A program made the position numbers and the translations under genes. Under the pieces are notes generated by a model, which ran no database searches, was not told the DNA's origin, and was given only the letters and a program-made list of their open reading frames with translations. Shown here piece after piece: positions 761 through 57,081 of a stretch of DNA of 60,489 nt (its first letter is position 1; every line of letters begins with the position of its first letter). This stretch comes from a virus (lineage: Duplodnaviria > Caudoviricetes), in the IMG/VR virus record IMGVR_UViG_3300037336_000242, positions 1 to 60,489 of that record. One strand, written 5' to 3'.

Positions 761-1045
761 CTACCAGCCCGCTTCATGGCGGTGCAGCTCAAGTACAATA
801 TCGAATGGCGGCATGATTTTAATGCCGCTCCATTCTGGTTGGCCGTACCGCACAAATTCTAACGGATCGCACGAATCGACCGACAACATACGGCCATCTT
901 CACCAACAACCTGCGACAATACGTCTTTAATGTGCGCTATACCATGCTGCGCACCCTCTAGGCGCATGCCGCTAGAATCTTCATCAAAGTACACTTCTAC
1001 GCCGCCAAAGGGCGTAAGCACACGGTACACATCATCGTCTATCAC
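761..1045 (-). CDS. hxr: Hxr-like small protein
   Basis: Overlaps ddrB-like stop as hxr follows ddrB in P1; YRVLTPFGGVEV...GEDGRMLSVDS resembles recalled P1 Hxr. Confidence 0.5.
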   Translation of the reverse strand: MIDDDVYRVLTPFGGVEVYFDEDSSGMRLEGAQHGIAHIKDVLSQVVGEDGRMLSVDSCDPLEFVRYGQPEWSGIKIMPPFDIVLELHRHEAGW

Positions 1046-4000: not shown

Positions 4001-6150
4001 CCCAAACACGCCTCCAGCACGCCCAATGGGTCATTCTGAATGTCTTGATTGGTGATTGTTTCAAAATCACCAATCATGCTATCAAACATCACTTTCTTGG
4101 TCGCTTTCTGAACCACCGCATCTTCAATTTCAGCCATTAGAACCAGTGGGTCGATTGTCCCCCTGTAAACATTCAGCACGCGCTTAATCACGGGGTCGCT
4201 GTAGCCCTCCACCGTGTGCAAGATGATCGCAGGTAGTGTGTCTTCATCGGCATCTAAAGCCATTTCGTACCGCTTAACGCCTGCAATCAGCAGCAGGTCG
4301 CCTAAGCGATTCTGTTGCAGCAGTAGCGGGGTTTTGGCGGTCGGTTGGCGTTCGCGGCTACCATTGGCGAATGGGTGAATTTTAACGTCATCTAGGTGGA
4401 CGTGCTCAAGTATGCCGTCCGCTAGGAATGAGTCGAATAGCGTACCATTGGCGGCATAGCTTGCAGCACCCCTGCCAAGCCCAAACAACCTCAAAAGTAT
4501 CTGCATTGCATCGTCTGCCGCCGCCTCGCTATTGAAAGAAAGATAAGATTCAACACCCCTAAGATTATCGCTTACTAACATGCCAGAAGGCTCGTCGTAA
4601 TTATCATCACCAAGTGCGTACAGTTGGCTCGACAGGTCGCTAATCTCACCTTCTGACAAGCCGCTCGCAGCGATTAACTCCTCCATCTCCGCATCATTAA
4701 ACCTATCCACCCCGATTACGATTAGACGATCATACCAGCCTATCGGAAATTCCCGCATCGAGTCAGGGTAAGCCTTTTGCAGCTTGCCTGAGCCTTTTTG
4801 CGCAGCAGATACACTATTGATTGGTTCGCTGGACATATCGCCAACACCAGCAGCGCTTTCTCTGCCTTTGCGTTGAGCCGCCAAAGCCGTTAAAAAGCCA
4901 TCATCTTGAGGGGCTTTTTTTGGTGATTTTGTGCTGATTGGCTTAATTAGGCGATTGCGGAACTCAAGCGTAAAATTAGGATCAGACGGCTTCACCGTAT
5001 GCAACACCATATCTAGCTCGTTATAGCAAACCAGACTTCCATCATCAGCCTGATAGACGCGCATGTCCTCATCATCATAAAGATACCCGACACCCATATT
5101 TGCACCACGAAGCGGCATTAACTGCTTCTTTGATATATTATTTATCAGCCAATCGCCTGCTTTGATTTTCGCGGCGGATCGCGCTTTTTTGCTTTCACTC
5201 GAATCATCTGAAGCTGTTGCCGAAAAATCTAAAATAATTCCAACATCGTCTGACTTATCGGATATTTCTGGCAGATCAGTAGGGCTGTAATTTGGGTCGA
5301 TTGCCGTTTTTACATTGTTTTCACGGCCTGCGGGGGTTATTTCAGCAGCCATTTCTTTGGTAGCCGCGTCTGCCATAACGCCTTTAGACCATTGTACAAA
5401 TTCATCTCTAGCAGGCTGCATTTCGACCGCGCCCACAAGGTCATCGCCTGTAGCCTTGCTAGATACATATTTAAACTCAGATCGTCTGCTTGAGACATCA
5501 ATGGCGGCAGATTTAAAAATGTAATGTTCAGTCTCAATATACGGTGCAACAGAAACCAACTTATCGCCATTTTTGCTTAGATAAAACCGACCACTATCAA
5601 TAAGCGACTGCATACCCGCGCTAAGTTCGCGCACAGGCGTAGCATTTGCCTGTTCGGCTTGTCGCTTGGGTTTGTGCATTTTCTGCTTTGCAATATCTGC
5701 AAGTAATTTGTGCGCCAAATTAGACGCATACGCTTGTAATTCAGCAGCAGTGGCATCTTCGATCCCAAATTTTTCGGCATTTGACGGTGACGCCTTTAGC
5801 TTTTCAAACACAAAGCCGCCCGATGATTCAGAAATATACCAGCTTGTACCGCTTAAACCAGTCCTTGATCCGTTTAATAAATCAATGCTTTGTCGCAAGC
5901 TGCTAGATTCGTCTAACAAGCCAACGTCATCTCGCATGTAATATCGACCGTCTTTTTTATCCCAATAGTTAATCAGCCCCAACTCTTTCCATGTGAGTAT
6001 TTCGATCTTCGTGGGCCGCACTGCGCGTAGTTGGTCGGCATCGTCATCAGACGCTATTAAGCTCCGCAACGCCCCCAAGCACACATCCAGCACGCCTAAC
6101 GGATCTCGCTCAATATCGGAATCTGTTACCGCTTGAATTGCCTTATCCAT
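1042..6150 (-). CDS. ddrB: DdrB-like polyvalent head/injected protein with C-terminal zincin metallopeptidase
   Basis: LFHEMGHHME (HExxH) plus YVGKYY...TEVWSMGLE; ParB-like segment TPLLLQQNRLGDLLLIAGVKRY; synteny darA-ddrA-ddrB-hxr; start MDKAI at 6150 preferred because the promoter -10 is at 6185-6190. Confidence 0.7.
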   Translation of the reverse strand: MDKAIQAVTDSDIERDPLGVLDVCLGALRSLIASDDDADQLRAVRPTKIEILTWKELGLINYWDKKDGRYYMRDDVGLLDESSSLRQSIDLLNGSRTGLSGTSWYISESSGGFVFEKLKASPSNAEKFGIEDATAAELQAYASNLAHKLLADIAKQKMHKPKRQAEQANATPVRELSAGMQSLIDSGRFYLSKNGDKLVSVAPYIETEHYIFKSAAIDVSSRRSEFKYVSSKATGDDLVGAVEMQPARDEFVQWSKGVMADAATKEMAAEITPAGRENNVKTAIDPNYSPTDLPEISDKSDDVGIILDFSATASDDSSESKKARSAAKIKAGDWLINNISKKQLMPLRGANMGVGYLYDDEDMRVYQADDGSLVCYNELDMVLHTVKPSDPNFTLEFRNRLIKPISTKSPKKAPQDDGFLTALAAQRKGRESAAGVGDMSSEPINSVSAAQKGSGKLQKAYPDSMREFPIGWYDRLIVIGVDRFNDAEMEELIAASGLSEGEISDLSSQLYALGDDNYDEPSGMLVSDNLRGVESYLSFNSEAAADDAMQILLRLFGLGRGAASYAANGTLFDSFLADGILEHVHLDDVKIHPFANGSRERQPTAKTPLLLQQNRLGDLLLIAGVKRYEMALDADEDTLPAIILHTVEGYSDPVIKRVLNVYRGTIDPLVLMAEIEDAVVQKATKKVMFDSMIGDFETITNQDIQNDPLGVLEACLGVLSAGNERTHLVGKLKEMLLANKDMFEQAANRGNGIDTIADIWINNNSVINVIVNEAEKAKKPDYFYSLLSNDSELKGIIADAVNATRADTGDFEPAQSVVQKKLQTPEDLIPFPESDFAKAFSGMYRQTGQYAKQAHTNYIETIRAAEAKAMPHVENSEQQAAFDQAKAELMAEYIQKIKSVMSAASGVYSGHIAGWSKLNIKQVERRDSAYEKTTAPIYKWMSGFATEQIYYAVRAAMNPEQRQREADSNQAARDADMDKAAMQLWGLLDGVLPMKFAGDIVKSIGFSRDGLPSSLTIGGGWDPIKLESIYRKTPYTVEGLISHLKSKGFDVPTKASQIKKEGVAKAAKKTAINPDHKTITMDEWKRKGKDRKTIKDGQRFILGMTANGTGLIPVNVVKSLDGFDSIASELDTMTNQDIQNDPLGVLDVCLAELGRPTVINPTNHAATLSYAKKVLNTVAAGSSAAQKAQTLGYFKEMLTLMAKAGYSNKGLDELEEFAYFSTPNSLDETKVNGLTYADYEERGKDTHEIGNALYDDAVRYEEGIKQAAVALKGRADAGWREHVERVNLIVRQYKAINPSTPEDIALSEKLYAEYKILEKITWKKFKQPLEDDYRKEKDRMAEQLATHGQVFLDGLMQATAVDATTAKGWAEQQPISDDAAKHLKKLKYPIDQVRKDLAELYALTNGRISHVALDYVSGNRRAYTTESQNRVSSKTLQLGSDFDKQILFHEMGHHMESDKAALAASNGFLEAKRESDKLHRLEDLSLDSGYDKSELAYKGNFFNPYVGKYYADKTTEVWSMGLESFAMPSVLAQRIGQDPQMFAMIKGGIAAPKHPLAVVIEALATKTVDDVLQVKKEEIGRLTKMMKKITEVVRLTDDAAAASGGLAANQKRHPDMSYMGGYKGVSLFSAKVRNRKTKRVGKGFLVVHSREFNYAIAGAGFDNAEAAFVELARTVVKEGSYTLGKPNESNIEFVFRHLEKIQ
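2711..4053. repeat. 41-bp identical direct repeat (2711-2751 and 4013-4053) encoding TNQDIQNDPLGVL; diverged copy near 6085-6120
   Basis: TCCAGCACGCCCAATGGGTCATTCTGAATGTCTTGATTGGT read at both positions. Confidence 0.9.
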
Positions 6151-6184
6151 CACTAAAAAACCAAAATAGCCCACGATTGGGGCT

Positions 6185-6566: not shown

Positions 6567-9458
6567 TTATGCCGCTGCTTGCATGGCTTTTTTGGCCGCT
6601 GCTTTAACCAAGTCGAATGCTTGACCGACCAAATCATCTAATTCAGCGTTCGGGTTGGCTTCGAGTTCGGCATCCATGCGCTTCAATTCAGCTTGTACCG
6701 CCTTAATATCCGCTAGGGTTGCCAGTGGCGTTGCACCGCTAATAACGCTGTTTAGGTAGTCGGCATCGGGGCTTGTCGCTGGTACGTCTGGCTCTACCGC
6801 AGCAGGTACGGGCTGTGATAGACCTTTCACATAATCAACACCTGCTTTCGGCAAGTACATCAACCTGTTTGTAGGGGAAACCAAACTATCGACTAATTTG
6901 TAAAAACTAAAACCCAGCGGGGTATTATGCGGGCTTGTTTTTATCAGGGCGCGTAGTTCAATTAGTCGAATAGTGTCGGGGTGTTGCTTGTTACCAATAG
7001 GCGCTGACCGCTGCAACGACTCGTACTCTCTTGTAGTCGCATTGTTTTTGGCTGTATCAGGGCGCGTTAGCTCCTCTAATACCCAACCATCAGCCAATCT
7101 TTGATCAATAAGCTGTTTGTTTGTTGGTGCGCCGTCTTCATCGCTAGACTTGGCGCTTAGGTACTTCGTTTGACGCGCATCTTTTAATACATCCCCCTTT
7201 GAAGGCGCTACCACATCGGAATCATCCCCAATCAAGACCCCACTAGCACTAAACCCGCGATCAAAAAGCCATTTCGCCGCGCCCGATTTAGTTGTGAATT
7301 CTCTAAACTCAGTCGCTGTTGCCGCCATGATTTTACCATTACGCTGCAATGTACCGCTGCTTGTCTCGCCGTTGTAGCCGTCTTGCTGAATCTCCAGAAA
7401 AGGTGCAACTGCTTTTTGTGTATTGCCGCGTGCTTTTTCAGTATCAACCACACCTTGCATCTCTAAAAACTCAGCTTCTGTGCAACCTCGCCACTCAAGA
7501 ATACCGCTGACAATTTCCCGTTTACTTTTTCCAGCAATCTTCGTTGTGCCGGTGTAAGCGTCAAACACTTTACGGCTGATTTTGTTATCCGCGTCGGAAA
7601 AATAAGGCATGTGTTCTACCAATCCAGAATCGGTCTCCTCCATCGCCTTGATTCTTTCAATCATTAGGACCGTGTATCTAAATGATTGATCGTCGTTAGA
7701 GTGATCTAATGAGCTGGCTGATGCGATTGCAACACCCATCGCTTTTTTGAACTTTTCAACATCCATGCCTGCTGGGATTCTATCAATCCAGCTAGTGGTT
7801 TTTGCATCGGGCTGTGGCGCAATGGTTTTATTTGGGGCAATTAAATCACCTGTCATTGGGTTGGTACTCCAACCAGCGTTCAAAAGATCAATCAGTTTCT
7901 CGACCTTCTTTTCGCTCGAAATAACATAGCCACCTTGCACCCGCGACCATCGCCCGTTAATGCCTTTGGCTTCACATAATTGATTAATGCGAGTTCTTCC
8001 ACCGCCTTTACGTCTGTCAGATACGATCAAAACACCCTTAGCGTTGCGTTGCGGCTTGGTAATAACGTAGTTAATCGTTTGTCCATCGTACTCTTTGTAC
8101 TGCCCGTTATACGGCTTTTCATCACCAGCATTCCAGTCGTCAGCTTCGGCTTGTGTAACATCGTCAGACTCAGTCGCGGCGGGTGCGGGTCGGCTGTTTG
8201 CGGCATAGTGCTGCTCCGCTTCTTCACGGGTTGCAAACGACGCAATGCCCTCTGGTCGTACCGACAAAAACGGATATTTACCACCATCCTCAGAATCCCA
8301 CACGCCAGAGTAGCCCATAGGCGGCTTTTTGGATTGAACCACCGGCTTATCCAACTCAGCTTGCAGCACCACCATTTCAGCATCCAATCCCGCAATCGTC
8401 GCGCTGTGCTGTTCGATACGCCCGCTGACCTCGGTCAATTCCTGCGCGTTTTCGGCCTTTTTCGCATTGGTGCGGGTAAAGCGTGCGCTGTTTTGGTTTA
8501 CCAGCTTCATTATGCGAATAGCCAACACTGGCAACTGCACATCTTCACCTTGATTCGGCTGCACCGCCGCCGATACATCGCGGGCATTCAGTAGGATTTT
8601 CCAGCTAATCAGCGTATCGCCCGGCAGTAATTTTGACGGCGTAGAATCGGGATTGTGGAAAACAATAGAAACCGACTGACCATCTGAAACCTCAAAAATC
8701 GCGGCCACCTGCGTGACTTTATTGCGCTTGAAAGGCTCAGACTGGCGGTAGTTGCTGATCGTCAAGCCCCCGCCGGCGGCAGCATCCATAGCCTCAGACA
8801 AGAGTTGCATCAGCTTGTCCAGACGACGGTTTTCTACGATGATCGCATCGTAGCCCATCATTTCAGCACCAAGCCACTCAAGCATCGCGGGCATATCATC
8901 GGCTTTCATCGCATCGAATAGCTGCGAATCATCGTCATGTTTAACCAGATCAAGTAGTAGAGTAGCCGTGCTGCCACCGTGTGACTTTAGATTGATACCG
9001 TCCCACATCGCGGGTTGCATCGTGGTGACATCCTGCAAGGCCAGCAGGTTTTTGCTGTATACCGGCAAGTTATCGCGTGGATTTAGTTTTTCGCTGTTTA
9101 GATAGCGCATCAAACCTTTTCCATTCGACTCAGTAACCGCCTGCACTTCACAGCTATCAAAAAACCGCCCGTATTGGCTCTGTACCCACTCGACCGCCTG
9201 ATCAGCGTCTAACGCGCCAATGACCGCTACAGCGTCGAATAACGCGCCTGTAGCACCCTTAGACTTCAAGTTGACCACTTGCCATAGATCGGCATCGGTA
9301 GCCGTAGGCGATAGCAGGGCGTCGATCATGCGGCATTGGCCGACAATATGCCCAACTGCTAGATTTGAATAGATGTTATCGAAGCCTGGCACGCGGCGGC
9401 TAGTGCGTGGGGCGTGGGCTTGCACAAAAATGCTTGTGTTGGACACGGTTTTTTCCAA
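6567..9458 (-). CDS. darA: DarA-like defence-against-restriction head protein
   Basis: SDGQSVSIVFHNPD...DTLISWKILLNARDVSAAVQP...KLVNQNSARF matches recalled P1 DarA core. Confidence 0.8.
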   Translation of the reverse strand: MEKTVSNTSIFVQAHAPRTSRRVPGFDNIYSNLAVGHIVGQCRMIDALLSPTATDADLWQVVNLKSKGATGALFDAVAVIGALDADQAVEWVQSQYGRFFDSCEVQAVTESNGKGLMRYLNSEKLNPRDNLPVYSKNLLALQDVTTMQPAMWDGINLKSHGGSTATLLLDLVKHDDDSQLFDAMKADDMPAMLEWLGAEMMGYDAIIVENRRLDKLMQLLSEAMDAAAGGGLTISNYRQSEPFKRNKVTQVAAIFEVSDGQSVSIVFHNPDSTPSKLLPGDTLISWKILLNARDVSAAVQPNQGEDVQLPVLAIRIMKLVNQNSARFTRTNAKKAENAQELTEVSGRIEQHSATIAGLDAEMVVLQAELDKPVVQSKKPPMGYSGVWDSEDGGKYPFLSVRPEGIASFATREEAEQHYAANSRPAPAATESDDVTQAEADDWNAGDEKPYNGQYKEYDGQTINYVITKPQRNAKGVLIVSDRRKGGGRTRINQLCEAKGINGRWSRVQGGYVISSEKKVEKLIDLLNAGWSTNPMTGDLIAPNKTIAPQPDAKTTSWIDRIPAGMDVEKFKKAMGVAIASASSLDHSNDDQSFRYTVLMIERIKAMEETDSGLVEHMPYFSDADNKISRKVFDAYTGTTKIAGKSKREIVSGILEWRGCTEAEFLEMQGVVDTEKARGNTQKAVAPFLEIQQDGYNGETSSGTLQRNGKIMAATATEFREFTTKSGAAKWLFDRGFSASGVLIGDDSDVVAPSKGDVLKDARQTKYLSAKSSDEDGAPTNKQLIDQRLADGWVLEELTRPDTAKNNATTREYESLQRSAPIGNKQHPDTIRLIELRALIKTSPHNTPLGFSFYKLVDSLVSPTNRLMYLPKAGVDYVKGLSQPVPAAVEPDVPATSPDADYLNSVISGATPLATLADIKAVQAELKRMDAELEANPNAELDDLVGQAFDLVKAAAKKAMQAAA

Positions 9459-9475
9459 AATGCAATGAATGGCCT

Positions 9476-9518
9476 ATCTTGCGTAGGCGTGGGCGTGGGC
9501 GTGGCGTAGGGTTCCGTT
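9476..9518 (-). promoter_or_regulatory. Putative late promoter AACGGAACC-N28-CAAGAT
   Basis: Conserved motif upstream of darA-like gene. Confidence 0.7.
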
Positions 9519-9551
9519 TGAGAAAGATTGAAAAATAATTGACGAAAGGTG

Positions 9552-9580
9552 TTGACGGTTACGGATAACCGAGTTACATT
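9552..9580 (+). promoter_or_regulatory. Sigma70 promoter TTGACG-N17-TACATT with inverted repeat operator CGGTTA-CGGA-TAACCG (9556-9571)
   Basis: Near-consensus hexamers, 17-bp spacing, palindrome between them; points into the CRISPR-Cas cassette. Confidence 0.75.
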
Positions 9581-9660
9581 AGCTTCAACAGGACGGCAAC
9601 GGACTGTAGGGGATCACCCCGTAGTGACTTGGCACTGACAACCAAGATTAGGAAATCATC

Positions 9661-10467
9661 ATGCCAAAACAAGCAATCGTCACCCCAAAACCTGTTGTCC
9701 TCACCATCGAGCAATTGCAAGCAATGAGCTGGACTTGTGTGTCTCACTCTGTTGACACCGTAGAATGCGATCAAGAAACAGTCATTGTTGGCATCGAATA
9801 TGACGAAGAAGGCAATGAAGTTGACGTTGAGCGCGAGTATTTCAATCGCTACGCATACGGCACTGCAACAATGCGGGCGGGCGAAAATCCAGCGGTTGAA
9901 ATCTCATTTACATGGGAGGCCGGCCATGAGGAAAAACACAGCTATGAAGATAGCTTTGATTTTGACTTGTGCGTTCACGCTGACAGTGAAATCAAGCTGA
10001 CAGGCTGCAATCTGGTCGATGAGGATGGTGATGCAGTAGAGGGCTGGGAACTAGGCCATGCACTGACCGAAATCGCAGCGGGTTGCGAATGGGAGGCCAT
10101 GGTTCGCGCCGACCTGCCAATACCTGAAACCGAAGTGCTGGAAACGGCAACCGAAGGGCAAGACATCACTGTATGGCGCGATAACGCCCCTGAAATCGCA
10201 TTTAAAGGCGCATGTATTGGCGGCGCGTCAAGCCGTAGTCAGTACAACGACAACGGACGCTGGACAGACCTGTATCTGTACCAGACCGTAGGCGGCAAGT
10301 TTGTCTGCTACGAGCGCAATAATTCGCAGTGGCAAGGCGAGCGCACCAAGCACAAAGCCGAAGTCTGCACCAACCACGCCGAAGTCGTTGCATGGTTCGG
10401 TCAAGGCCGTGTAGCCAAAGAACTGTATGCAGACGCTGGCATCAGCAACGTGCAAGTGATCGACTAA
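9661..10467 (+). CDS. Acidic hypothetical protein, first gene of the Cas-cassette transcript
   Basis: 268-aa ORF with RBS (AGGA), very D/E-rich N-terminal two-thirds; no family recognised with confidence. Confidence 0.8.
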   Translation: MPKQAIVTPKPVVLTIEQLQAMSWTCVSHSVDTVECDQETVIVGIEYDEEGNEVDVEREYFNRYAYGTATMRAGENPAVEISFTWEAGHEEKHSYEDSFDFDLCVHADSEIKLTGCNLVDEDGDAVEGWELGHALTEIAAGCEWEAMVRADLPIPETEVLETATEGQDITVWRDNAPEIAFKGACIGGASSRSQYNDNGRWTDLYLYQTVGGKFVCYERNNSQWQGERTKHKAEVCTNHAEVVAWFGQGRVAKELYADAGISNVQVID

Positions 10468-10484
10468 TCAGACACACAAAAGCC

Positions 10485-10514
10485 AAAAGCCTAGCCGCGT
10501 GCTGGGCTTTTTTT
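10485..10514 (+). terminator. Rho-independent terminator
   Basis: AAAAGCCTAGC-CGCGT-GCTGGGCTTTT stem-loop followed by a T run. Confidence 0.75.
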
Positions 10515-10774
10515 ATATCTCGGATTCGGGATTGGTCAAGCCAAACAACAACACCCTAGCTTCAAAGCTTAGTATCCCGTCACGCGGGATTGGTCGGAGC
10601 GTATGCTTTGCCCGTTCAGCAACATGATGGTATCCCGTCACACGCTGGATTATTCGATGATGATCTGGCTGGACTACCACCAAGATTCAGCATCTCGGAT
10701 TCGGGATTGGTCGGAATCACTGCCAAATGATTGGGGCAGCAAGACTGCATCCCGTAACACATGGGATTGGACTA
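10515..10774 (+). CRISPR. Leaderless degenerate CRISPR array: 5 repeats (25-28 nt), 4 spacers of exactly 32 nt
   Basis: Repeats at 10515 ATATCTCGGATTCGGGATTGGTCAA, 10572 GTATCCCGTCACGCGGGATTGGTCGG, 10630 GTATCCCGTCACACGCTGGATTATTCGA, 10690 GCATCTCGGATTCGGGATTGGTCGG, 10747 GCATCCCGTAACACATGGGATTGGACTA. Confidence 0.88.
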
Positions 10775-10793
10775 GGTTTTACAAGGCACCGAC

Positions 10794-10994
10794 ATGGCAA
10801 TGACCAACAGAGAAAAGCAAGCCGCCTACCGCAAGCGAAACGCGGGGCTGATTGTAAAGGCGGTAATCACGCCACAGGCAAAAGAAGCACTTGATCGATT
10901 GGTTGCGGTTGAACCTACGCAATCACAAGGGCAAGTGATCAGTGAAGCATTGATACAGTTTAAGGACGGGAAAGATGAAAATGACACCGTTTAA
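10794..10994 (+). CDS. Small DNA-binding protein (ribbon-helix-helix-like), candidate cassette regulator
   Basis: MTNREKQAAYRKR basic helix then VKAVITPQAKEALDRL...SQGQVISEAL strand-helix-helix pattern; overlaps csf3 start. Confidence 0.6.
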   Translation: MAMTNREKQAAYRKRNAGLIVKAVITPQAKEALDRLVAVEPTQSQGQVISEALIQFKDGKDENDTV

Positions 10995-11619
10995 AGTCAC
11001 CTGCCACGTCGCCACCCCAATGCAGCTAGGCAGCCACCCGCTGCACCTAGACGGCTTGCTGTACTGGTTGGCTATCGAGCATCAAGCTGATGCACAAGAC
11101 GTGCTAGACGTTTGCCTAGACCAACAGGCGGGTATCTATAAAGCAAGCGCCTTGTGCTTTGCCCCACAGCCGCTAGAAATCGTCACCACCCGCGCCGCGT
11201 CGCATCCAACCTGCTGGAAATGGAATGAGTTTAGCCTGCCAACAAGCGCAAAAACCATTGTGCAAAAAGGTGGGCCGTACCGGTCGAGAATGACCAGCTA
11301 CACTGCCTACCAATGCAGCCAAGTCGTGTTTTTTGGCGTAGGCGATATGACCAAGATTCAGGCGTTACTGTCCACATGCAATGGTCTAGGTCGCAACAGC
11401 AACCAAGGTTGGGGCGAAATAACCGCGATTGAAATCGAGCCGATGGATCAGGATTGTTCGTGGTTTATGGATGATCAGATCATGCGGACGCTACCGCTGG
11501 ACTTAATCCCAAGCAACACAGATACAAGCCACGCGCTGCAAGGACTGGCAAGCATTGCACCGCCTTACACCACCACCGCCAAACAAGCCACACAATCCCC
11601 CGTTTTTCTAAAGGTATAA
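10975..11619 (+). CDS. csf3: Type IV CRISPR Csf3 (Cas5 group)
   Basis: PFKVTCHVATP...LHLDGLL N-terminus, Gly-rich GLGRNSNQGWG loop, MRTLP. Confidence 0.88.
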   Translation: MKMTPFKVTCHVATPMQLGSHPLHLDGLLYWLAIEHQADAQDVLDVCLDQQAGIYKASALCFAPQPLEIVTTRAASHPTCWKWNEFSLPTSAKTIVQKGGPYRSRMTSYTAYQCSQVVFFGVGDMTKIQALLSTCNGLGRNSNQGWGEITAIEIEPMDQDCSWFMDDQIMRTLPLDLIPSNTDTSHALQGLASIAPPYTTTAKQATQSPVFLKV

Positions 11620-11623
11620 CGCT

Positions 11624-12610
11624 ATGAAAACAATCTTTTTCGCTGGCAAAATCAAAACCGTATCACCGGTTGCCGTGACCGTTCCCGATACCGTCGGCAT
11701 GCCAAAAGATAGCGCCGGTAACGCCTATCTGCCTGCAAATAGCATCCGTGGCAAGTTGCGCCACAGCCTGCATGAAGCAATCGCACGCCATTATGCAGAT
11801 CAAGGCAAGCCGCTTACAGTCGATCAGCATTACATGCTTGGTAGTGGCGTAGACACAGCACGCGCACTGAAAGATACCAGCAGCAACATCGGTGCAAATA
11901 CCGCACGCCGCGCCGCCAATCCAGTATTGTCGGTTTTTGGCAATTGGGGCTTGGCTGGCAAGTTAGGCGTGGGCAGCGGCTACACTGGCACAAAGGCGGT
12001 TATTCACGGCGCGGGCGTTCGTAAGCACGTCGGCAAGGAGTGGCTAGATCAAATAATCGACCTATCGGAAATCGACTACTTAACCGAAATCCTAAGCCAA
12101 GACGGGCAAACCAGCCAAGACTCGCAACCGATCAAAGACCGCCAAAAACTGCTCAAGCGTGAACTGAAAGGCGCGGACGCTACCCGCAAAACCGAAATCA
12201 ATACTGAGCTGGCAGACCTTGATCAGCAGCTACGCGAACTCAAAGACTTGCGCACTGGGGCAAGCGAAAGCATCCAACGCCCGCTAGAAGGTTTTGAGGT
12301 GATCGACCACGGCACAACCATGCCGCACCGCATGATCTTAAAGAACCCAACAGACACCGAGCTACACACGGTGTTACTGAGCATTGCAGCGTGGGCGTAT
12401 GAGCCGATGATTGGTGGGCATCACAATCTTGGGTGCGGCAATATCGACGCAGAATGGGAAATCTACGAACAAGCATTTTTGTCGAATGCGCGTACCAAAA
12501 TTGGCACGGTCGGATTTAATGAAACGGGCTTTTTTGTCGAAGGCATTGTGTTTGATGCAGCGGCAACACTGCAACACATCACCACTGATTTTGACTTGGC
12601 ACAGGTATAA
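11624..12610 (+). CDS. csf2: Type IV CRISPR Csf2 (Cas7 group)
   Basis: YLPANSIRGKLRH, RAANPVLSVFG, LAGKLGVG, MIGGHHNLGCG. Confidence 0.92.
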   Translation: MKTIFFAGKIKTVSPVAVTVPDTVGMPKDSAGNAYLPANSIRGKLRHSLHEAIARHYADQGKPLTVDQHYMLGSGVDTARALKDTSSNIGANTARRAANPVLSVFGNWGLAGKLGVGSGYTGTKAVIHGAGVRKHVGKEWLDQIIDLSEIDYLTEILSQDGQTSQDSQPIKDRQKLLKRELKGADATRKTEINTELADLDQQLRELKDLRTGASESIQRPLEGFEVIDHGTTMPHRMILKNPTDTELHTVLLSIAAWAYEPMIGGHHNLGCGNIDAEWEIYEQAFLSNARTKIGTVGFNETGFFVEGIVFDAAATLQHITTDFDLAQV

Positions 12611-12612
12611 CC

Positions 12613-13359
12613 ATGAATGCCATCTTAGGCGCACGGCTTCGCGCAACTTTCGCGCCTGAAATGGCGAATGAAGCCCCACAAGATTGTAATTCAGACTGTG
12701 AAAACTGCGGGCGTAAGCCGTCGGAATATGGCGGCGTGGCGTATGTCAGCACGGACAGCTACAAGCGGCAATTGGCACACTGTCCCGATTGCCGACCGAT
12801 CAGCATTCAAGCCCCACAGACGCTAGGGATTGCGATTGAACCCGCTACGGGCTTTACCCTTGCCACATTCAAAGGCGGTTACTTGGTTGTCCCTGCGACT
12901 GACAAGCCATCACTACTTGTATCTGGCAAGTACCCTGCCAAAATCCACCAACACGCGGTTGACGTGGTGCCGCTTGGTGGACACGCTGCTAAAGCATGGT
13001 TATTCAGCAATCACCAAGCCGATAGCTATGTGTTAGAGCTATCGCCACGGCGTGAACGGTTTAGCCGCCATGCCATGCCATGTGACCATAATCACTTGGT
13101 GATTGCCACTACAAGCGGCGCGGCAAAAATCAGCCTATCTGACTGGCAAAATAGCCGTGACGCGCTACGCGGCATCGCCAAATACAAAGACGTGATCAGC
13201 TTGGCGCGTGGACTCACAGAGGGGCGCTTGCACTTGTCCAGCGACAAGGTACAAGCGGCATTAACACCCGAAATCATGGCGGTTTTATCCGCACTACCTA
13301 AAGACCCCATTTCGCGCTGTTTCGTGTTAGACGCGCTCAGTGGCTTGGAGGCTGTATGA
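12613..13359 (+). CDS. csf1: Type IV Csf1 (Cas8-like large subunit)
   Basis: 248 aa with N-terminal CENC...CPDC zinc finger, located between csf2 and cas6. Confidence 0.65.
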   Translation: MNAILGARLRATFAPEMANEAPQDCNSDCENCGRKPSEYGGVAYVSTDSYKRQLAHCPDCRPISIQAPQTLGIAIEPATGFTLATFKGGYLVVPATDKPSLLVSGKYPAKIHQHAVDVVPLGGHAAKAWLFSNHQADSYVLELSPRRERFSRHAMPCDHNHLVIATTSGAAKISLSDWQNSRDALRGIAKYKDVISLARGLTEGRLHLSSDKVQAALTPEIMAVLSALPKDPISRCFVLDALSGLEAV

Positions 13360-13886
13360 ATCACTTATTTGCACTAAAGCCGCACAATGAAGCGCACAAG
13401 GCGGTTATGGCTGTTTTGCACAAGACAGGGCAAGACTGGAAAACCAAAGGCACGCGCAAAATTCAGTTTGCCAATCTTGGCAGCCTGATCTTGGTTCGCA
13501 CCAATCAGCAGCCAACAGGCATCCCGTGCAAAGCAGATGCGCCGGTATTCAGCACAGGCCAACGCCTAACGCTACAGGTCATCCTACCCGCACAAAAACG
13601 GGCGCGGGACTACCGCACAGCACCCGCAATCCGCACACAGTCAGAAATGAATGATCTTGCATCGGCATTGCTTGCTGAAAATGGCTTGTCTGTGGATAGC
13701 ATCGAGGGCAAGCCAGCACATTCTGCTTTTTTCAAAAAAGACGGTCGGACAACGGTTATTGCTGCAATGCACTTTGTCGCCACCGCCACCGTTACCGACC
13801 CGCAAGCCCTTGCGATTGCCTATACCCAAGGCGTCGGCCGCGAGAAATCGTTAGGGTTTGGCATGCTCATTGTGAAGGAGGTTTGA
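13356..13886 (+). CDS. cas6: Cas6 (Cas6e/Csf5-like) crRNA-processing endoribonuclease
   Basis: C-terminal VTDPQALAIAYTQGVGREKSLGFGML G-rich loop. Confidence 0.88.
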   Translation: MNHLFALKPHNEAHKAVMAVLHKTGQDWKTKGTRKIQFANLGSLILVRTNQQPTGIPCKADAPVFSTGQRLTLQVILPAQKRARDYRTAPAIRTQSEMNDLASALLAENGLSVDSIEGKPAHSAFFKKDGRTTVIAAMHFVATATVTDPQALAIAYTQGVGREKSLGFGMLIVKEV

Positions 13887-13888
13887 TT

Positions 13889-15796
13889 ATGTTTGATCTA
13901 GTTAAAAAGGCGTTCGCGCCGACTGGTTTTTTGGTCGAGCAAGGCGGGCGGCATACGCCAGAACAAGGCAACTACGCGCTATCCGTAGCCGTAACCCTGC
14001 TATCACAAGGCAAGATGAATCTAAGCCTGTTAGAAGCTGAAACAGGCGTAGGAAAGTCGCTAGGCTACCTGATTCCTAGCTTGATCTGGTTGGCTCAAAA
14101 TCCCAAAAAACAGATTGTGGTCAGCACGTTTACCCGCGCACTGCAAAAGCAATTGATCGACGAAGATGCACAGAAAGCCTGTCAGTTTTTGGTAGCCAGT
14201 GGCTTGCCCGCTGTTAAGGTCGCCTACAGAATGGGCAAGGCTTCGTTTTTCTCAATTGATCGTGTGGCACTCCTGATTGCTGAAATTCAAACCGAACAAA
14301 ACAAGGCTTTGCTGCATGAGTTTTACCAGTACGCGCTGCATTCAGCATCACATGGTTCTGGCCTGTGGCGTGACTGGATCGACGAACACGGGCAGTTTCC
14401 ATGCGACATTAGCCCCAACAGCATCGGCTTGATTGGCGACCAAACCAGCATCGCTTATGAAGCGCATCTGACCGCGTCCAAAGAAGCCCAACTGCTGATC
14501 ACCAATCACGCCACCATGCTGATTGCAGTTAGCCGCAAAATCCTAGACCTTGATCGGGTTCACGCCATTATTTTTGATGAAGCACACGAACTCGAAGCAG
14601 CGGCCAAAAGTTTCTTAAACACCCGCCTAAACTTTACCGAGCTACTGAGCAAGACGCACGGTATGGATGGACACGCCGCAATCGCTGACTTACTAAAACA
14701 GTGGACAGAGGATCTATCCAGCCACGTCAACAAAAGCCTGATCAATAGCGAACACCCCGCGCTTATGCTACAGCAGCAGGGCAACGCTGAAAAACTGCTT
14801 GACCTGCTAAAAGGCACGCTAGGCAAACTAAGCACCAAGCAACGCAAGGCCGACTCTGGCATCGAGCTTGCCGAACTTGTCGAGCGAGTCGGTTCGTGGT
14901 GCGCCGGTGCGGAAAGCACGCAGCGTAAGGCAATCGCGTTTTCTGACAAAAAGTCTATTCCTAGCCTTGCGATGGTTTCGAGTGCGGCCGCGCCTTTCCT
15001 ACGCAATCTGTTTGAGCAACTGAATAGCAATGTGATTATGACCAGTGCAACACTGGCAGATATGCAGCCGCAAACATCGTTTTTTAACATCAAATTCAGT
15101 GCAGGTTTGCGTGACTTTACAATCTGCCAAGAACGGCGTTATAGCCCTAATCAGTACGGCACAATGACATTCGCAGTCACTGAGTATGAAGGCGGTATCT
15201 TTAGCGGTAAAAGTGACGATGAAGCTGATGAAGTTTGCTACAGCGCGGCATGGCTCAAGCAAACAGCAGAAACAATCATGTCAAGCCGTGGCAAGACGCT
15301 AGTGCTGGTTCCGTCATTTCGTGAGGCCAAGTTATTGGCGGGTTTGTTGCCAAAAGATCAGGTGATTTGTCACCAGCCAAACCAGCCAAACTACCAAGTC
15401 ACACAGACGTTAATCAGTGGCGATAGTCGTATCCTCATTACGCCGTCATGCTGGGAAGGGGTCAATATCCGCAATGCCGACGGTTCGCAGGTTTTAGAGA
15501 CGATTGTGATTAGCCGCATTCCCTACGCGCCGCCTGATTTGGTGCGCCTTACTGCACTGAGCAACTACCTAAAGGACAAGTCAGAGGCAAACAAAATCAT
15601 CCATCTAATGTCACGCCAAGCCGCGTTACGCAAGGTCAAGCAGGGTATTGGGCGCGGCATTCGTAGCCCAAATGATCGGGTGCATGTAGTCTTTTGCGAC
15701 CCGCGCATCAAGGCGGCGCGGCATGCAATCCCTAAGCGGTTTGTGGCGGCGTTTGATCTGGCAGTCAACAAGGGTAAAATCACCAATGTTTTTTAG
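13889..15796 (+). CDS. dinG: CasDinG (Csf4) 5'-3' helicase
   Basis: EAETGVGKS Walker A, IFDEAHE, SATL, WEGVN, KQGIGRGIRS; GGAGG RBS before ATG 13889. Confidence 0.93.
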   Translation: MFDLVKKAFAPTGFLVEQGGRHTPEQGNYALSVAVTLLSQGKMNLSLLEAETGVGKSLGYLIPSLIWLAQNPKKQIVVSTFTRALQKQLIDEDAQKACQFLVASGLPAVKVAYRMGKASFFSIDRVALLIAEIQTEQNKALLHEFYQYALHSASHGSGLWRDWIDEHGQFPCDISPNSIGLIGDQTSIAYEAHLTASKEAQLLITNHATMLIAVSRKILDLDRVHAIIFDEAHELEAAAKSFLNTRLNFTELLSKTHGMDGHAAIADLLKQWTEDLSSHVNKSLINSEHPALMLQQQGNAEKLLDLLKGTLGKLSTKQRKADSGIELAELVERVGSWCAGAESTQRKAIAFSDKKSIPSLAMVSSAAAPFLRNLFEQLNSNVIMTSATLADMQPQTSFFNIKFSAGLRDFTICQERRYSPNQYGTMTFAVTEYEGGIFSGKSDDEADEVCYSAAWLKQTAETIMSSRGKTLVLVPSFREAKLLAGLLPKDQVICHQPNQPNYQVTQTLISGDSRILITPSCWEGVNIRNADGSQVLETIVISRIPYAPPDLVRLTALSNYLKDKSEANKIIHLMSRQAALRKVKQGIGRGIRSPNDRVHVVFCDPRIKAARHAIPKRFVAAFDLAVNKGKITNVF

Positions 15797-15911
15797 TCGC
15801 CTTTAACGCACTGTTTTTGCTTTGCTTTTTTTGGGTCACTGAAAATTGGGTTAAATGCTGAATTTAGCCGATACTCTTTAAAAATCAGATGGTTTTGGTT
15901 GGATGGTTACA
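15797..15911 (+). promoter_or_regulatory. CRISPR leader with IHF-like site
   Basis: AT-rich 115 bp containing CTCTTTAAAAATCAGATGGTTT, resembling WATCARNNNNTT of type I-E/I-F leaders. Confidence 0.65.
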
Positions 15912-16299
15912 GTATCCCGTCAGGTGCGGGATTTAGCGGAAAACATACGCCCGCAAACTGGCAAACAAGGCGTATCCCGTCAGGTGCGGGATTTAGCGGA
16001 AAAGTGACTTGATTGTCACTGTTACCCTTTTGTATCCCGTCAGGTGCGGGATTTAGCGGAGTGTTAAGGCGTTACAAGACCAACGACTCTAGTATCCCGT
16101 CAGGTGCGGGATTTAGCGGTTGTCGAAGCATTCAGGTTGCCAGAGTGCAAAGTATCCCGTCAGGTGCGGGATTTAGCGGAACTGGTAGATTTGGTCGGGT
16201 TCGATCGGTTGGTATCCCGTTAGGTACGGGATTGGTCGGTCTTGTCCTTCACCAAGTCGAGCGTAACCCGCGTATCCCGTCGTGTACGGGATTGGTTGC
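15912..16299 (+). CRISPR. CRISPR array: 7 repeats of 28 nt, 6 spacers of 32 nt
   Basis: GTATCCCGTCAGGTGCGGGATTTAGCGG identical at 15912, 15972, 16032, 16092, 16152; variants at 16212 and 16272; exact 60-nt period. Confidence 0.98.
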
Positions 16300-16302
16300 C
16301 GC

Positions 16303-16938
16303 CTACCAGTCGCCCGCGTTGCCTAGCATCATCGGATACATTTTCTGAAAGCCAAGCTGAAGCTGCAAAGGGTCACGGTCGCTGCCAGACAAGTCTAGCG
16401 AACTGCTGGTAAGCGCCACAATCCAGTTAAAATCTGCTGGTTTGGTTTTTTTATTGTTTCGGTCAAATAAATATATCCGCATGTTTAGCAGGTAATCGTA
16501 GGGTAGCCCTTGCGTCCCGTCCCGCTTGAACATCGCCCTCTTAATGGCTTGCACCATCCTGATAATATCGCCATTGGCTGTTTCTAAAAAAGTGACTTGC
16601 ACCTCACTAGAGCTATTGCCCGTAATGTAATTTTGTTGGTGTGCCCCAATTTGCACACTGTCATTTTGCGCATCGAGTAGCCCAAAATTAACCGACGTTG
16701 CAAGCCACGGCAAAGCCCAGCCCAGACCATCAGGCTGCAATGCCAACACAGACCCAAGCACCCCGCCTGCACTGATTGGACTTGGATTTACTGGTGATAG
16801 CTCTACAACATAATGCGCCTTTGATAGCGTACCAAGTGCGTACACCTGCTTATACGCCGCCTTCAATTCCTTAGAATCCAAACCAGACCACGGTGCATTA
16901 CTCGCCTTTTTTGAAATATCTATATCTATTCCGGCCAT
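16303..16938 (-). CDS. Putative baseplate / tube-initiator-like virion protein
   Basis: Coupled to portal gene; tube-like pattern VQVTFLETANG...LQLQLGF. Confidence 0.5.
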   Translation of the reverse strand: MAGIDIDISKKASNAPWSGLDSKELKAAYKQVYALGTLSKAHYVVELSPVNPSPISAGGVLGSVLALQPDGLGWALPWLATSVNFGLLDAQNDSVQIGAHQQNYITGNSSSEVQVTFLETANGDIIRMVQAIKRAMFKRDGTQGLPYDYLLNMRIYLFDRNNKKTKPADFNWIVALTSSSLDLSGSDRDPLQLQLGFQKMYPMMLGNAGDW

Positions 16939-56774: not shown

Positions 56775-56834
56775 TGCATAATCACCTTGCGTTGTTGCTG
56801 TTGTTCGGCAAACGGTTACACCCGCTTGCCACCT

Positions 56835-56866
56835 AAGCCCCGCTCATTCACTTGAGCGGGGTTTTT
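56835..56866. terminator. Strong hairpin/terminator next to solitary repeat
   Basis: AAGCCCCGCTCA-TTCACT-TGAGCGGGGTTTTT; T run on + strand. Confidence 0.7.
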
Positions 56867-56872
56867 GCTGTT

Positions 56873-56900
56873 TTGACCAATCCCGCAAAGCGCGGGATAC
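56873..56900 (-). CRISPR. Solitary CRISPR repeat unit
   Basis: Minus strand GTATCCCGCGCTTTGCGGGATTGGTCAA: 28 nt, GTATCCCG and CGGGATTGGTC identical to array repeats, perfect 7-bp stem, intergenic. Confidence 0.85.
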
Positions 56901-57081
56901 CTGCAATCCGTCCGTGAATTCGATCAGGCTACGGTGCAATCACGACTGGACTTGTTTTGGTTCGAGAAAACCGCAACAAGTAAGGAGGTAGTCGCTTGCA
57001 CTGCATCCGTTTTGCTGAACCTGCGGCACGGTTTGCTTATCCGCATCCAGCCTTAAGCCGCTGGCAGCCCACAACAAAGGG

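What the first reader, a model, noticed from the sequence alone, without database searches (positions are those of the whole stretch)
10515..10774. Cryptic leaderless CRISPR array: every repeat different, every spacer exactly 32 nt
Seen: five repeats of 25, 26, 28, 25 and 28 nt differing mainly in loop length and sequence while keeping the ATC-GAT stem base and mostly the TTGGTC 3' end. Spacers are GCCAAACAACAACACCCTAGCTTCAAAGCTTA, AGCGTATGCTTTGCCCGTTCAGCAACATGATG, TGATGATCTGGCTGGACTACCACCAAGATTCA and AATCACTGCCAAATGATTGGGGCAGCAAGACT. There is no leader; the array starts right after a terminator. Conserved structure and spacer length argue for selection, not decay. Inference: a hard-wired, recombination-resistant guide set for type IV-A CRISPRi (for example against host defence or receptor genes, or persistent competitors), separate from the adaptive array. 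Standard array finders would probably miss it.
Basis: partly seen in the sequence, partly recalled or inferred. Interest (0 to 1): 0.87.

Follow-up and report, generated by a model that had tools for sequence, protein, structure and literature searches.

The report
Old leaderless second CRISPR array
A phage that carries its own type IV-A CRISPR system has, just in front of the cas genes, a second, older CRISPR array whose five repeats have each drifted apart while mostly keeping the hairpin; this is real, but it looks like the aged ends of related arrays rather than a new kind of device.

Summary
At 10515-10774 there are five repeat-like units of 25, 26, 28, 25 and 28 nt. They are separated by four spacers of exactly 32 nt and start 3 nt after an intrinsic terminator.

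The units are homologous to the repeats of the canonical array at 15912-16299. They share their 3' tail with that array's two oldest repeats. The genes between the arrays form a divergent type IV-A operon without cas1 or cas2. The whole 6.8-kb block is an insertion in a P1-like myovirus.

The hairpin is kept in register on the + strand: 29 of 30 core pairs are standard, and three units have G-U pairs. Length changes lie only in loops. The statistical support for selection is modest: p = 0.012, or 0.095 without the outer ends.

Leader-distal repeats of related plasmid IV-A arrays drift in a similar way. I found no promoter, target, relative or RNA data.

Best reading: an old second array that can no longer take up spacers and is probably still partly processed. 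The "hard-wired guide set" reading is not shown.

The parts
9661..10467 (+). 268-aa ORF of unknown function, first gene of the inserted block. The only promoter-like site upstream of the array lies before it (9552-9580).
   Evidence: ORF list. No Pfam or PHROG hit; a weak sub-threshold EXLDI hit. Promoter-like site TTGACG-17-TACATT, 9 of 12. The gene is absent between p211 and darA in 4 of 4 related phage contigs.
10485..10511 (+). Intrinsic terminator-like hairpin plus T run, directly before unit U1.
   Evidence: 11 pairs, 5-nt loop, then a T run.
10515..10539 (+). Unit U1, 25 nt. 6-bp stem with one G-U pair, 4-nt loop, 3' tail TGGTCAA.
   Evidence: -5.4 kcal/mol on +, -2.0 on -; 15.3 bits, E 0.25.
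10540..10571 (+). Spacer 1, 32 nt.
   Evidence: No target found.
10572..10597 (+). Unit U2, 26 nt. Intact 7-bp stem, 3-nt loop, tail TGGTCGG. The best-kept unit.
   Evidence: -9.1 kcal/mol; 33.1 bits, E 1.3e-6, with a model built from main-array repeats only.
10598..10629 (+). Spacer 2, 32 nt.
10630..10657 (+). Unit U3, 28 nt. One C-U mismatch in the stem and a diverged tail TATTCGA. The weakest unit.
   Evidence: -3.2 kcal/mol; 112 of 200 shuffles fold as well; 15.6 bits, E 0.078.
10658..10689 (+). Spacer 3, 32 nt.
10690..10714 (+). Unit U4, 25 nt. Nearly the same as U1, with tail TGGTCGG.
   Evidence: -5.5 kcal/mol on +, -2.1 on -; 14.4 bits, E 0.17.
10715..10746 (+). Spacer 4, 32 nt.
10747..10774 (+). 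Unit U5, 28 nt. The terminal unit: 7-bp stem with one G-U pair and a degenerate tail TGGACTA.
   Evidence: -7.6 kcal/mol on +, -5.8 on -; 12.7 bits, E 0.99.
10794..10994 (+). 66-aa ORF, a possible small CopB/RepA2-like repressor. It is the first gene of the cas operon and overlaps the start of csf3.
   Evidence: NF010256, E 0.0056, far below the cut-off, so the hit is weak. Translation. The likeness to plasmid R1 CopB is recalled, not tested.
10975..11619 (+). csf3 (Cas5 of type IV).
   Evidence: TIGR03116, E 3.5e-19, 69.3 bits, below the cut-off of 140. 32% identity to the plasmid homologue in L002.
11624..12610 (+). csf2 (Cas7 of type IV).
   Evidence: TIGR03115, E 6.8e-10. RAMPs. tblastn matches in 471 plasmid records, best 41.4%.
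12613..13359 (+). csf1-like large subunit, 248 aa, with Cys clusters near the N terminus.
   Evidence: No family hit. 26% identity to the gene at the csf1 position of L002, E 4.5e-15. Translation.
13356..13886 (+). Cas6/CasE-like endoribonuclease, 176 aa.
   Evidence: PF08798, E 1.4e-9, 38.9 bits, above the cut-off of 25. TIGR01907, E 4e-8.
13883..15796 (+). DinG/Csf4 helicase.
   Evidence: YoaA E 1.7e-45, Csf4 E 3.3e-29. Helicase_C_2 and DEAD.
15797..15911 (+). Leader of the main array.
   Evidence: Sequence. A promoter-like site lies at 15753-15780, 9 of 12.
15912..16299 (+). Main array: 5 identical 28-nt repeats plus 2 older ones (16212, 16272) that carry the tail type of the upstream units. 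Spacers are 32 nt.
56873..56900 (-). Solitary repeat-like unit with a 7-bp stem and the same tail as U1 (TGGTCAA). It lies in the early region between a cro-like gene and the replication genes. It may be related to the array; its function is unknown.
   Evidence: 18.4 bits, E 0.013, model from main-array repeats only; 4 matches where 0.00 are expected.

Best explanation
This is a genuine CRISPR array: the older, leaderless sister of the array at 15912-16299. Both belong to a type IV-A module (small repressor-like ORF, csf3, csf2, csf1-like, cas6, dinG) that was inserted as a 6.8-kb block into a P1-like phage.

Because it has no leader, it no longer takes up spacers, so its repeats are no longer renewed by duplication and have drifted apart. 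The drift has mostly spared the parts a CasE-type Cas6 needs: a hairpin that starts at repeat position 3 and ends 7 nt before the repeat's end, on the + strand. It has also spared the 32-nt spacing that the Csf2 backbone measures.

No recognisable promoter lies between the terminator at 10485-10511 and the first cas-operon ORF at 10794. Transcription of the cas operon must therefore start inside the array or run through it. I infer that the array, or at least its 3' part, is transcribed as the 5' leader of the cas mRNA and is cut by Cas6 into up to four fixed crRNAs. Spacers 2 and 4 would carry the consensus tail TGGTCGG as their 5' handle; spacers 1 and 3 would carry diverged handles.

Shown: the anatomy, the homology of the units to the main array, the insertion, and the retained hairpins. 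Inferred: transcription, processing and loading of the crRNAs. Unknown: the targets.
For: 1. Homology of the units.
- The pattern GGATT-38N-GYATCYCG hits only the two arrays, 10 matches against 0.01 expected.
- ATCCCG-N(3-9)-GGGATTGGT hits U2, main repeats 6 and 7, and one solitary unit, 4 matches against 0.00 expected.
- A covariance model built from main-array repeats alone finds U2 at E 1.3e-6.

2. Hairpins.
- All 5 units fold in the same register as the 3 distinct main repeats.
- Energies on the + strand are -5.4, -9.1, -3.2, -5.5 and -7.6 kcal/mol. On the - strand they are -2.0, -8.4, -3.2, -2.1 and -5.8.
- 29 of 30 core stem pairs are standard, and three units have G-U pairs that would be mismatches on the other strand.

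3. Distribution of changes.
- Differences from the consensus are 4 of 60 stem positions against 11 of 45 tail positions, Fisher p = 0.012.
- All length changes (-3, -2, -3 nt) lie in loops. None lies in the 128 nt of spacers.

4. Context.
- The cas genes are intact.
- No cas1 or cas2 is found in the record.
- No promoter-like site of 9 of 12 or better lies in 10440-10830; the best is 8 of 12.

5. The main array is in current use.
- It has five identical leader-proximal repeats.
- The 32 nt of its spacer 2 also stand outside the array in the same sample.

6. Age pattern. The six leader-distal repeats of the closest readable relative's array (L002) all differ from one another while keeping the stem.
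Against: - There is no leader and no promoter-like site, and a strong-looking terminator sits directly upstream. Transcript levels could therefore be very low.
- U3's hairpin is broken; 112 of 200 shuffles fold as well.
- Two of the four would-be 5' handles are diverged (TGGTCAA and TATTCGA), and none equals the handle of the five young repeats (TTAGCGG).
- The constraint test weakens to p = 0.095 when the outer ends of U1 and U5 are left out. U1 and U4 may share one mutational history, so events are fewer than cells.
- The 2-nt loop deletion in U2 lies in a CACAC run, where slippage is expected without any selection.
- No protospacer was found for any of the 4 spacers in the window (best 19-20 of 32, within the shuffle range of 19-23), in 50,697 phage records (best E 0.8) or in 72,556 plasmid records (best E 3).
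- In the one sequencing run that holds this DNA, the array lies on a single unbranched contig, with no second context for any of its spacers.
Confidence: 0.55

Rival explanations
1. A dead relic. The array lost its leader, perhaps when the 268-aa gene and its terminator came to lie in front of it, and is now decaying neutrally. The hairpins survive only because little time has passed. No useful crRNA is made.
For: - There is no leader or promoter, and a terminator abuts U1.
- U1's first two bases differ from the consensus right at the junction.
- U3's stem is broken.
- Tails differ from the consensus at 11 of 45 positions.
- No targets were found.
- The p value is only 0.095 without the outer ends.
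- A similar drift is seen at the old ends of relatives' arrays.
Against: - 29 of 30 core pairs are still standard, and three of the four stem changes are G-U-preserving transitions that work only on the + strand.
- All length changes fall in the roughly 30 nt of loops out of 260 nt (chance 0.001-0.02 for 2-3 events).
- The stretch has to be transcribed, or to hold the promoter, if the intact cas operon is expressed at all.
Confidence: 0.3
2. A regulatory set of crRNA-like RNAs, of the CreR/CreA or crlRNA kind. One or more of the spacers would guide the non-cutting IV-A complex by partial pairing to a promoter, either of the cas operon, of phage genes or of host genes, to tune expression.
For: - The position directly upstream of the cas operon is typical of such mini-arrays (PMC10120712, passages read by find).
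- IV-A acts by binding rather than cutting (same paper, discussion passage).
- The repeats are degenerate.
- A solitary repeat-like unit also lies in the phage's early region.
Against: - No seed match of 12 or more of 15 positions for any of the 4 spacers lies in the three promoter-bearing stretches tested (9440-9700, 10440-11000, 15700-15915).
- The best match is 11 of 15 in the seed and 20 of 32 overall (spacer 1 against the main-array leader). That is about what chance gives.
- There are five units with four full-length spacers, unlike the usual two-repeat mini-array.
- The host genome is unknown, so host targets could not be tested.
Confidence: 0.1
3. An RNA decoy of the Racr kind. The varied repeat hairpins would soak up Cas6 or Cas proteins of related CRISPR systems of the host or of competing plasmids, each variant fitting a different system.
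For: Phage-borne repeat mimics are known (PMC10651486, passages read by find). Every unit here is different, and a solitary unit exists elsewhere in the phage.
Against: - The units sit next to their own cognate cas genes and keep exact crRNA-length spacing.
- No promoter was found here.
- No array with this repeat type turned up in the species genomes, metagenome or virus collections scanned.
Confidence: 0.04

Closest known systems
Leader-distal (old) ends of plasmid type IV-A arrays, e.g. Acinetobacter sp. TGL-Y2 plasmid NZ_CP015111.1 (L002) and Alteromonas plasmid NZ_CP018025.1 (L019)
   Same: - The repeats differ from one another while the stem is kept.
- The tails that become crRNA handles vary.
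- The spacers stay near 32 nt.
- L002 has 7 distinct sequences among 9 repeats, its six distal repeats all differ, and two of its periods are 59 nt.
- L019 has 5 distinct sequences among 7 repeats.
   Different: - Those drifted repeats are still joined to a leader and to young identical repeats.
- Here the drifted set stands alone on the other side of the operon, with no leader.
- Its loop lengths vary more (3 to 5 nt beyond a 6- or 7-bp stem).
Loci with two arrays flanking the cas operon, as in many type I-E and I-F systems (recalled from general knowledge, not tested here)
   Same: Two arrays with related repeats lie on either side of one cas operon, in the same orientation.
   Different: In those loci each array usually has its own leader. 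Here only the downstream array has one.
Regulatory mini-arrays / crRNA-like RNAs (CreR, CreA; Shmakov et al. 2023, PMC10120712)
   Same: Degenerate repeat-like units lie next to cas genes, often upstream of the operon.
   Different: - Those mini-arrays have one spacer-like segment that partly matches a nearby promoter.
- No such match was found here, and there are four full-length spacers.
- A table row in that paper reads CAS-IV-A 166, 0.06, 0.00. I did not see the column heads. By comparison with the text on V-A, I take them as number of loci, share with repeat-like sequences, and share with mini-arrays.
Phage solitary repeat units / RNA anti-CRISPRs (Racr; Camara-Wilpert et al. 2023, PMC10651486)
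   Same: Repeat-like hairpins carried by a phage. The unit at 56873-56900 is solitary.
   Different: The array described here is not solitary, has spacers of crRNA length, and sits beside its cognate cas genes.
Klebsiella-type IV-A3 systems (Pinilla-Redondo 2020, PMC7038947; Benz et al., 10.1101/2023.06.23.546257)
   Same: csf1, csf2, csf3, a Cas6-like gene and dinG are present; cas1 and cas2 are absent; the repeat is I-E-like with its hairpin near the 3' end. Csf2 is 32-35% identical.
   Different: - The gene order here is csf3-csf2-csf1-cas6-dinG. The four plasmid relatives I opened (L002, L017, L018, L019) have csf1-cas6-dinG-csf3-csf2; I did not open a Klebsiella IV-A3 locus.
- The carrier here is a P1-like phage, not a conjugative plasmid.

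Membership tests
CRISPR array | Three or more direct repeats of similar sequence at regular spacing | tested here: met
   There are five units. The distance from the 3' arm of one unit to the next unit's start is constant in 4 of 4 intervals (10 matches in the window, 0.01 expected).
CRISPR array | Unique spacers of uniform length | tested here: met
   There are four different spacers of 32 nt each, the same length as the spacers between the seven main-array repeats.
CRISPR array | Repeats homologous to those of the array beside the same cas operon | tested here: met
   Alignment. A covariance model from main-array repeats finds U2 at E 1.3e-6, U3 at 0.078 and U4 at 0.17; U1 and U5 appear only with the widened model, at E 0.25 and 0.99. 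A shared-tail motif is shown.
CRISPR array | Repeat hairpin fit for a Cas6/CasE-type nuclease on the sense strand | tested here: inconclusive
   Four of 5 units fold well in register and U3 is weak. Cleavage itself cannot be tested here.
CRISPR array | Leader with a promoter next to the first repeat | tested here: not met
   A terminator lies at 10485-10511, 3 nt before U1. No promoter-like site of 9 of 12 or better lies in 10440-10830.
CRISPR array | Transcription and processing into crRNAs | not testable with these tools
   No data on transcription could be had with these tools (see Tried and rejected).
CRISPR array | Spacers match foreign DNA (protospacers) | tested here: inconclusive
   There are no significant matches for the 4 spacers in the phage or plasmid collections. 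The 7 main-array spacers have none there either, so the test has no power for this habitat.
Type IV-A CRISPR-Cas | csf1, csf2 (Cas7), csf3 (Cas5), a Cas6-like gene and a DinG helicase in one operon | tested here: met
   All NCBIfam scores are below the curated cut-offs, so this is a divergent member. csf1 is supported only by its position and 26% identity to L002's gene.
Type IV-A CRISPR-Cas | No adaptation genes (cas1, cas2) | tested here: met
   Neither PF01867 nor PF09827 matches in the 60,489-base record. The record is estimated to be about 70% complete, so absence is not proven for the whole phage.
Regulatory mini-array (CreR/CreA type) | The spacer-like segment partly matches a promoter of cas or an adjacent gene, beside a PAM | tested here: not met
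   The best match is 11 of 15 in the seed and 20 of 32 overall, at chance level. Host promoters could not be tested.
RNA anti-CRISPR (Racr) / solitary repeat unit | [quoted passage not shown] | tested here: not met
   There are five units with spacers next to cognate cas genes, and no promoter was found. The separate unit at 56873-56900 is solitary, but the same phage carries the cas genes.

The most novel reading that the evidence does not exclude
The phage uses its type IV-A system partly as a fixed gene-silencing device. On this reading the upstream array is a selected, non-adaptive set of four guides. Its repeats have diversified, which would also protect it from loss by repeat-repeat recombination. 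It is transcribed as the 5' leader of the cas mRNA, so that guide supply and Cas supply are coupled. The solitary repeat unit between the cro-like gene and the replication genes ties the same Cas6/Csf machinery into the phage's early transcript. The targets would be host or competitor genes not yet sequenced.
Probability: 0.12. Interest if true: 0.8.

Novelty: new member of a known kind. Interest (0 to 1): 0.4.

Why it matters
Type IV-A systems are known mainly from conjugative plasmids. Here a divergent one, with a rearranged gene order, rides in a P1-like phage and has two arrays of different age.

The old array shows in one locus what happens to repeats once uptake of spacers stops: loops and tails drift, while the hairpin and the spacer length hold. 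If the old array is still processed, it would be a natural example of a fixed guide set with non-identical repeats, which would interest people who build stable multiplex arrays.

If it is a relic, it still warns that array finders can miss aged arrays and so undercount spacers in mobile elements.

Tried and rejected
Relatives.
- Csf2 as a single protein and as a 4-sequence alignment found no related locus in viral, metagenome or species-genome contigs.
- The protein database holds only three relatives at 74, 49 and 39% identity.
- A two-repeat DNA pattern gave 0 viral, 10 metagenome and 2 genome hits. All were single-unit chance matches.
- A one-repeat pattern gave 7 viral hits, none with tblastx similarity to the window at E<=1e-8.
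- blastn of 10400-16400 against phages and plasmids gave no match.

Targets.
- The array was searched against phages (27 records, all one 26-nt match at E 0.8) and plasmids (1 record, E 3).
- The main array gave no match in either collection.
- Self-matches in the window are at shuffle level, and so are seed matches near promoters.
- I did not scan the large collections with the individual spacers. That would have meant typing neighbouring stretches of the window in several calls.

Expression.
- No RNA holder was listed. The single run that holds the stretch is DNA, kept as contigs, and may be the source of the window.
- It shows no variant and no second context for the upstream spacers.

Other families and homology.
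- Rfam gave no CRISPR-DR or other meaningful match in 9400-16500.
- Tandem Repeats Finder sees neither array.
- The sequence after U1 and the sequence after the solitary unit are not homologous: 30% of shuffles score as well.
- The stretch after the solitary unit is not a second repeat. It is part of a third hairpin.

Rejected ideas.
- Iterons, because the units are homologous to the CRISPR repeats.
- Transcription on the minus strand, because three units have G-U pairs that become mismatches there.

Literature.
- Searches listed no paper whose title or abstract describes a leaderless degenerate second array in a type IV-A locus.
- I read only listings, abstracts and passages found by term.
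- Supplements are closed and I did not open them. The supplementary locus lists of PMC10120712 and Supplementary Figure S10 of PMC7038947 could hold comparable cases.
Full report
WHAT IS THERE

The window is a whole viral record of 60,489 bases, estimated to be about 70% complete. It encodes a portal, tail sheath, baseplate, large terminase and a DarA-like protein. Its portal is nearest to that of Acinetobacter phage vB_AbaM_ABMM1 (48.6%) and more distantly related to those of P1, P7 and D6.

Between 10,975 and 15,796 on the + strand lie csf3, csf2, a 248-aa csf1-like gene, a CasE-like cas6 and dinG. A 66-aa ORF at 10794-10994 precedes them and overlaps the start of csf3. It gives a weak hit to the small RepA/CopB regulator family (E 0.0056). 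No cas1 or cas2 profile matches anywhere in the record.

All NCBIfam scores are below the curated cut-offs, so this is a divergent type IV-A system. Csf2 matches 471 plasmid records by tblastn, at 41.4% identity at best (Acinetobacter sp. TGL-Y2 plasmid) and 32-35% for the Klebsiella IV-A3 plasmids.

Downstream of dinG is a 115-nt leader and a canonical array at 15912-16299. It has five identical 28-nt repeats followed by two older, variant ones, with 32-nt spacers.

THE OBSERVATION

The spacing does not depend on where the repeat borders are drawn. The pattern GGATT, 38 free bases, GYATCYCG occurs ten times in the window: four times here, six times in the main array, and nowhere else. Shuffles give 0.01.

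A terminator-like hairpin of 11 pairs at 10485-10511, with its T run, ends just before unit 1. There is indeed no leader.

The generic repeat finder reported the main array but not this one. A covariance model made from the seven main repeats found U2 clearly (33.1 bits, E 1.3e-6), U3 and U4 marginally (E 0.078 and 0.17), and U1 and U5 not at all among its 30 matches at E<=10. After widening the model with the first hits, U1 and U5 came next in line but weakly (E 0.25 and 0.99).

So the array is real, far beyond chance, and hard to see.

HOW THE UNITS RELATE TO THE MAIN ARRAY

All eight distinct repeat sequences share the same plan: two bases, a 6-7 bp stem on ATCCCG/CGGGAT, a loop, and a 7-nt tail.

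The five young main repeats have the tail TTAGCGG. The two old main repeats and units U2 and U4 have TGGTCGG or a near variant. The upstream units therefore represent the older repeat type of this module. The five identical main repeats are later copies of a changed first repeat, as expected if spacers are still added at the leader of the main array only.

IS THE HAIRPIN KEPT?

Each of the five units folds in the same register as the main repeats. The energies on the two strands are:

| Unit | + strand (kcal/mol) | - strand (kcal/mol) |
|---|---|---|
| U1 | -5.4 | -2.0 |
| U2 | -9.1 | -8.4 |
| U3 | -3.2 | -3.2 |
| U4 | -5.5 | -2.1 |
| U5 | -7.6 | -5.8 |

The main repeats fold at -9.0 to -9.9 kcal/mol. 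The + strand is favoured because U1, U4 and U5 each have a G-U pair.

Twenty-nine of 30 core pairs are standard. The exception is a C-U mismatch in U3, whose fold is no better than shuffles.

Differences from the consensus fall on 4 of 60 stem positions and 11 of 45 tail positions (Fisher p = 0.012). Leaving out the outer ends of the two terminal units, which are commonly degenerate, gives 7 of 36 and p = 0.095.

All length changes lie in loops and none in the spacers. For two or three independent events the chance of that is 0.001 to 0.02. Two caveats apply. U1 and U4 are nearly identical and may share one event. U2's 2-nt loss lies in a CACAC run that is prone to slippage.

I read this as real but modest evidence that the hairpin and the spacing have been under constraint.

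WHAT RELATIVES SHOW

No relative with this repeat type could be found. The three protein relatives of Csf2 (74, 49 and 39% identity) sit on contigs I could not fetch.

I therefore looked at the nearest plasmid loci whose DNA is readable. All four have the gene order csf1-cas6-dinG-csf3-csf2, so the order here (csf3-csf2-csf1-cas6-dinG) has the two blocks swapped.

Their arrays are heterogeneous too:
- In the Acinetobacter plasmid, three identical leader-proximal repeats are followed by six repeats that all differ from one another. The stem is kept, the tails vary, and two periods are 59 rather than 60 nt.
- The Alteromonas array has 5 distinct sequences among 7 repeats.
- The Aeromonas array has 3 distinct sequences among 8 repeats.

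'Every repeat different' is therefore seen at the old ends of the relatives' arrays. What is unusual here is that the aged set stands alone, without a leader, on the upstream side of the operon, and that its loops vary in length.

THE MODULE IS AN INSERTION

Four related viral contigs (portal 64-66% identical, L020-L023) have the 211-aa gene downstream of the portal followed within about 80 nt by darA.

In the window, these two genes are separated by the block from about 9,460 to about 16,330. The block holds the 268-aa ORF with a promoter-like site, the terminator, the upstream array, the cas operon, the leader and the main array. The flanking phage genes are on the other strand, so the block must supply its own transcription.

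The only promoter-like sites scoring 9 of 12 near the arrays are before the 268-aa ORF (9552-9580 and 9635-9662) and in the end of dinG (15753-15780). Nothing better than 8 of 12 lies between the terminator and the first cas-operon ORF.

If the intact cas operon is expressed, transcription must start inside the upstream array or run through it from the 268-aa gene. This is an inference, but it makes it likely that at least part of the array is transcribed on the + strand.

TARGETS AND EXPRESSION

None of the four spacers has a significant match in the window, in the phage collection (best E 0.8) or in the plasmid collection (best E 3). The main-array spacers have none either, so these collections are blind to this salt-lake community.

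In the single public run that holds the DNA, which may be its source, the upstream array lies on one unbranched contig. The 32 nt of main-array spacer 2, by contrast, form their own piece at higher depth (42 against 17), with two contigs running on into unlike sequence on either side. So one main-array spacer sequence exists outside the array in the same sample, and none of the four upstream spacers does.

RIVAL READINGS

- A neutral relic is the main rival. It fits the missing leader, the broken U3, the diverged handles and the lack of targets.
- A regulatory mini-array of the CreR kind fits the position. I found no partial match to the promoter-bearing stretches of the block above chance.
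- A decoy of the Racr kind does not fit. There are five units of crRNA spacing beside cognate cas genes.

A RELATED THING ELSEWHERE

The model built from main repeats also found a solitary repeat-like unit on the minus strand at 56873-56900 (18.4 bits, E 0.013). It has a perfect 7-bp stem and the same tail as U1.

It lies in a 307-nt, highly structured gap (z -3.6) between a cro-like gene and a 101-aa ORF that is followed by an O-like replication gene. A CI-like repressor gene lies divergent to it. Its flanks are not homologous to those of U1, and the 32 nt after it have no target in the window. Its role is open.

VERDICT

The stretch is a genuine, old, leaderless second array of a phage-borne type IV-A module. 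I put about 55% on it still being transcribed with the cas operon and at least partly processed, about 30% on a dead relic, and the rest on regulatory or decoy roles.

Repeat drift of this kind has plain precedents in related arrays. Interest is moderate.

Noticed in passing
window 56873-56900 (- strand), in the gap 56775-57081: A solitary CRISPR-repeat-like unit with a 7-bp stem and the tail of upstream unit U1. It lies 40 kb from the cas genes, between a cro-like gene and the replication genes, and is followed by two more hairpins. It could be a Cas6 cutting site in the early transcript, a crRNA-like RNA or a decoy.
   Followed up: partly
window about 9460-16330: The whole CRISPR-Cas block, together with a 268-aa ORF of unknown function, is an insertion. 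In 4 of 4 related viral contigs (L020-L023) the flanking genes p211 and darA lie about 80 nt apart.
   Followed up: yes
window 16000-16031: In the one run that holds this DNA, the 32 nt of main-array spacer 2 form a separate piece at depth 42 (the phage is at 17), and contigs run on into non-array sequence on both sides. This is probably the protospacer in another element, or in the missing part of the phage.
   Followed up: partly
window 10975-15796 against L002, L017, L018 and L019: The gene order here is csf3-csf2-csf1-cas6-dinG. All four plasmid relatives I looked at have csf1-cas6-dinG-csf3-csf2, so the two blocks are swapped.
   Followed up: partly
window 10794-10994: A 66-aa ORF at the head of the cas operon gives a weak hit to the small RepA/CopB-type plasmid copy-control repressor. 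It may be the regulator of the operon. No homologue lies beside the plasmid IV-A loci I checked.
   Followed up: partly
window 16303-16330: The stop codon of the 211-aa phage gene lies 4 nt from the last repeat of the main array, and its last 7 residues do not align with relatives (alignment ends at residue 204 of 211). The insertion therefore seems to have replaced the end of this gene.
   Followed up: partly
window 55116-55143 (+ strand): A half-repeat-like stretch shares 12 consecutive bases with the 3' half of the main repeat. It lies inside a coding region on the other strand (16.6 bits, E 0.13). It may be chance.
   Followed up: no
window 1042-6174 and 6567-9458 (- strand): A DarA-like protein (963 aa, DarA_N domain) and a 1710-aa protein lie beside the insertion, an arrangement like the P1 anti-restriction head proteins.
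   Followed up: no
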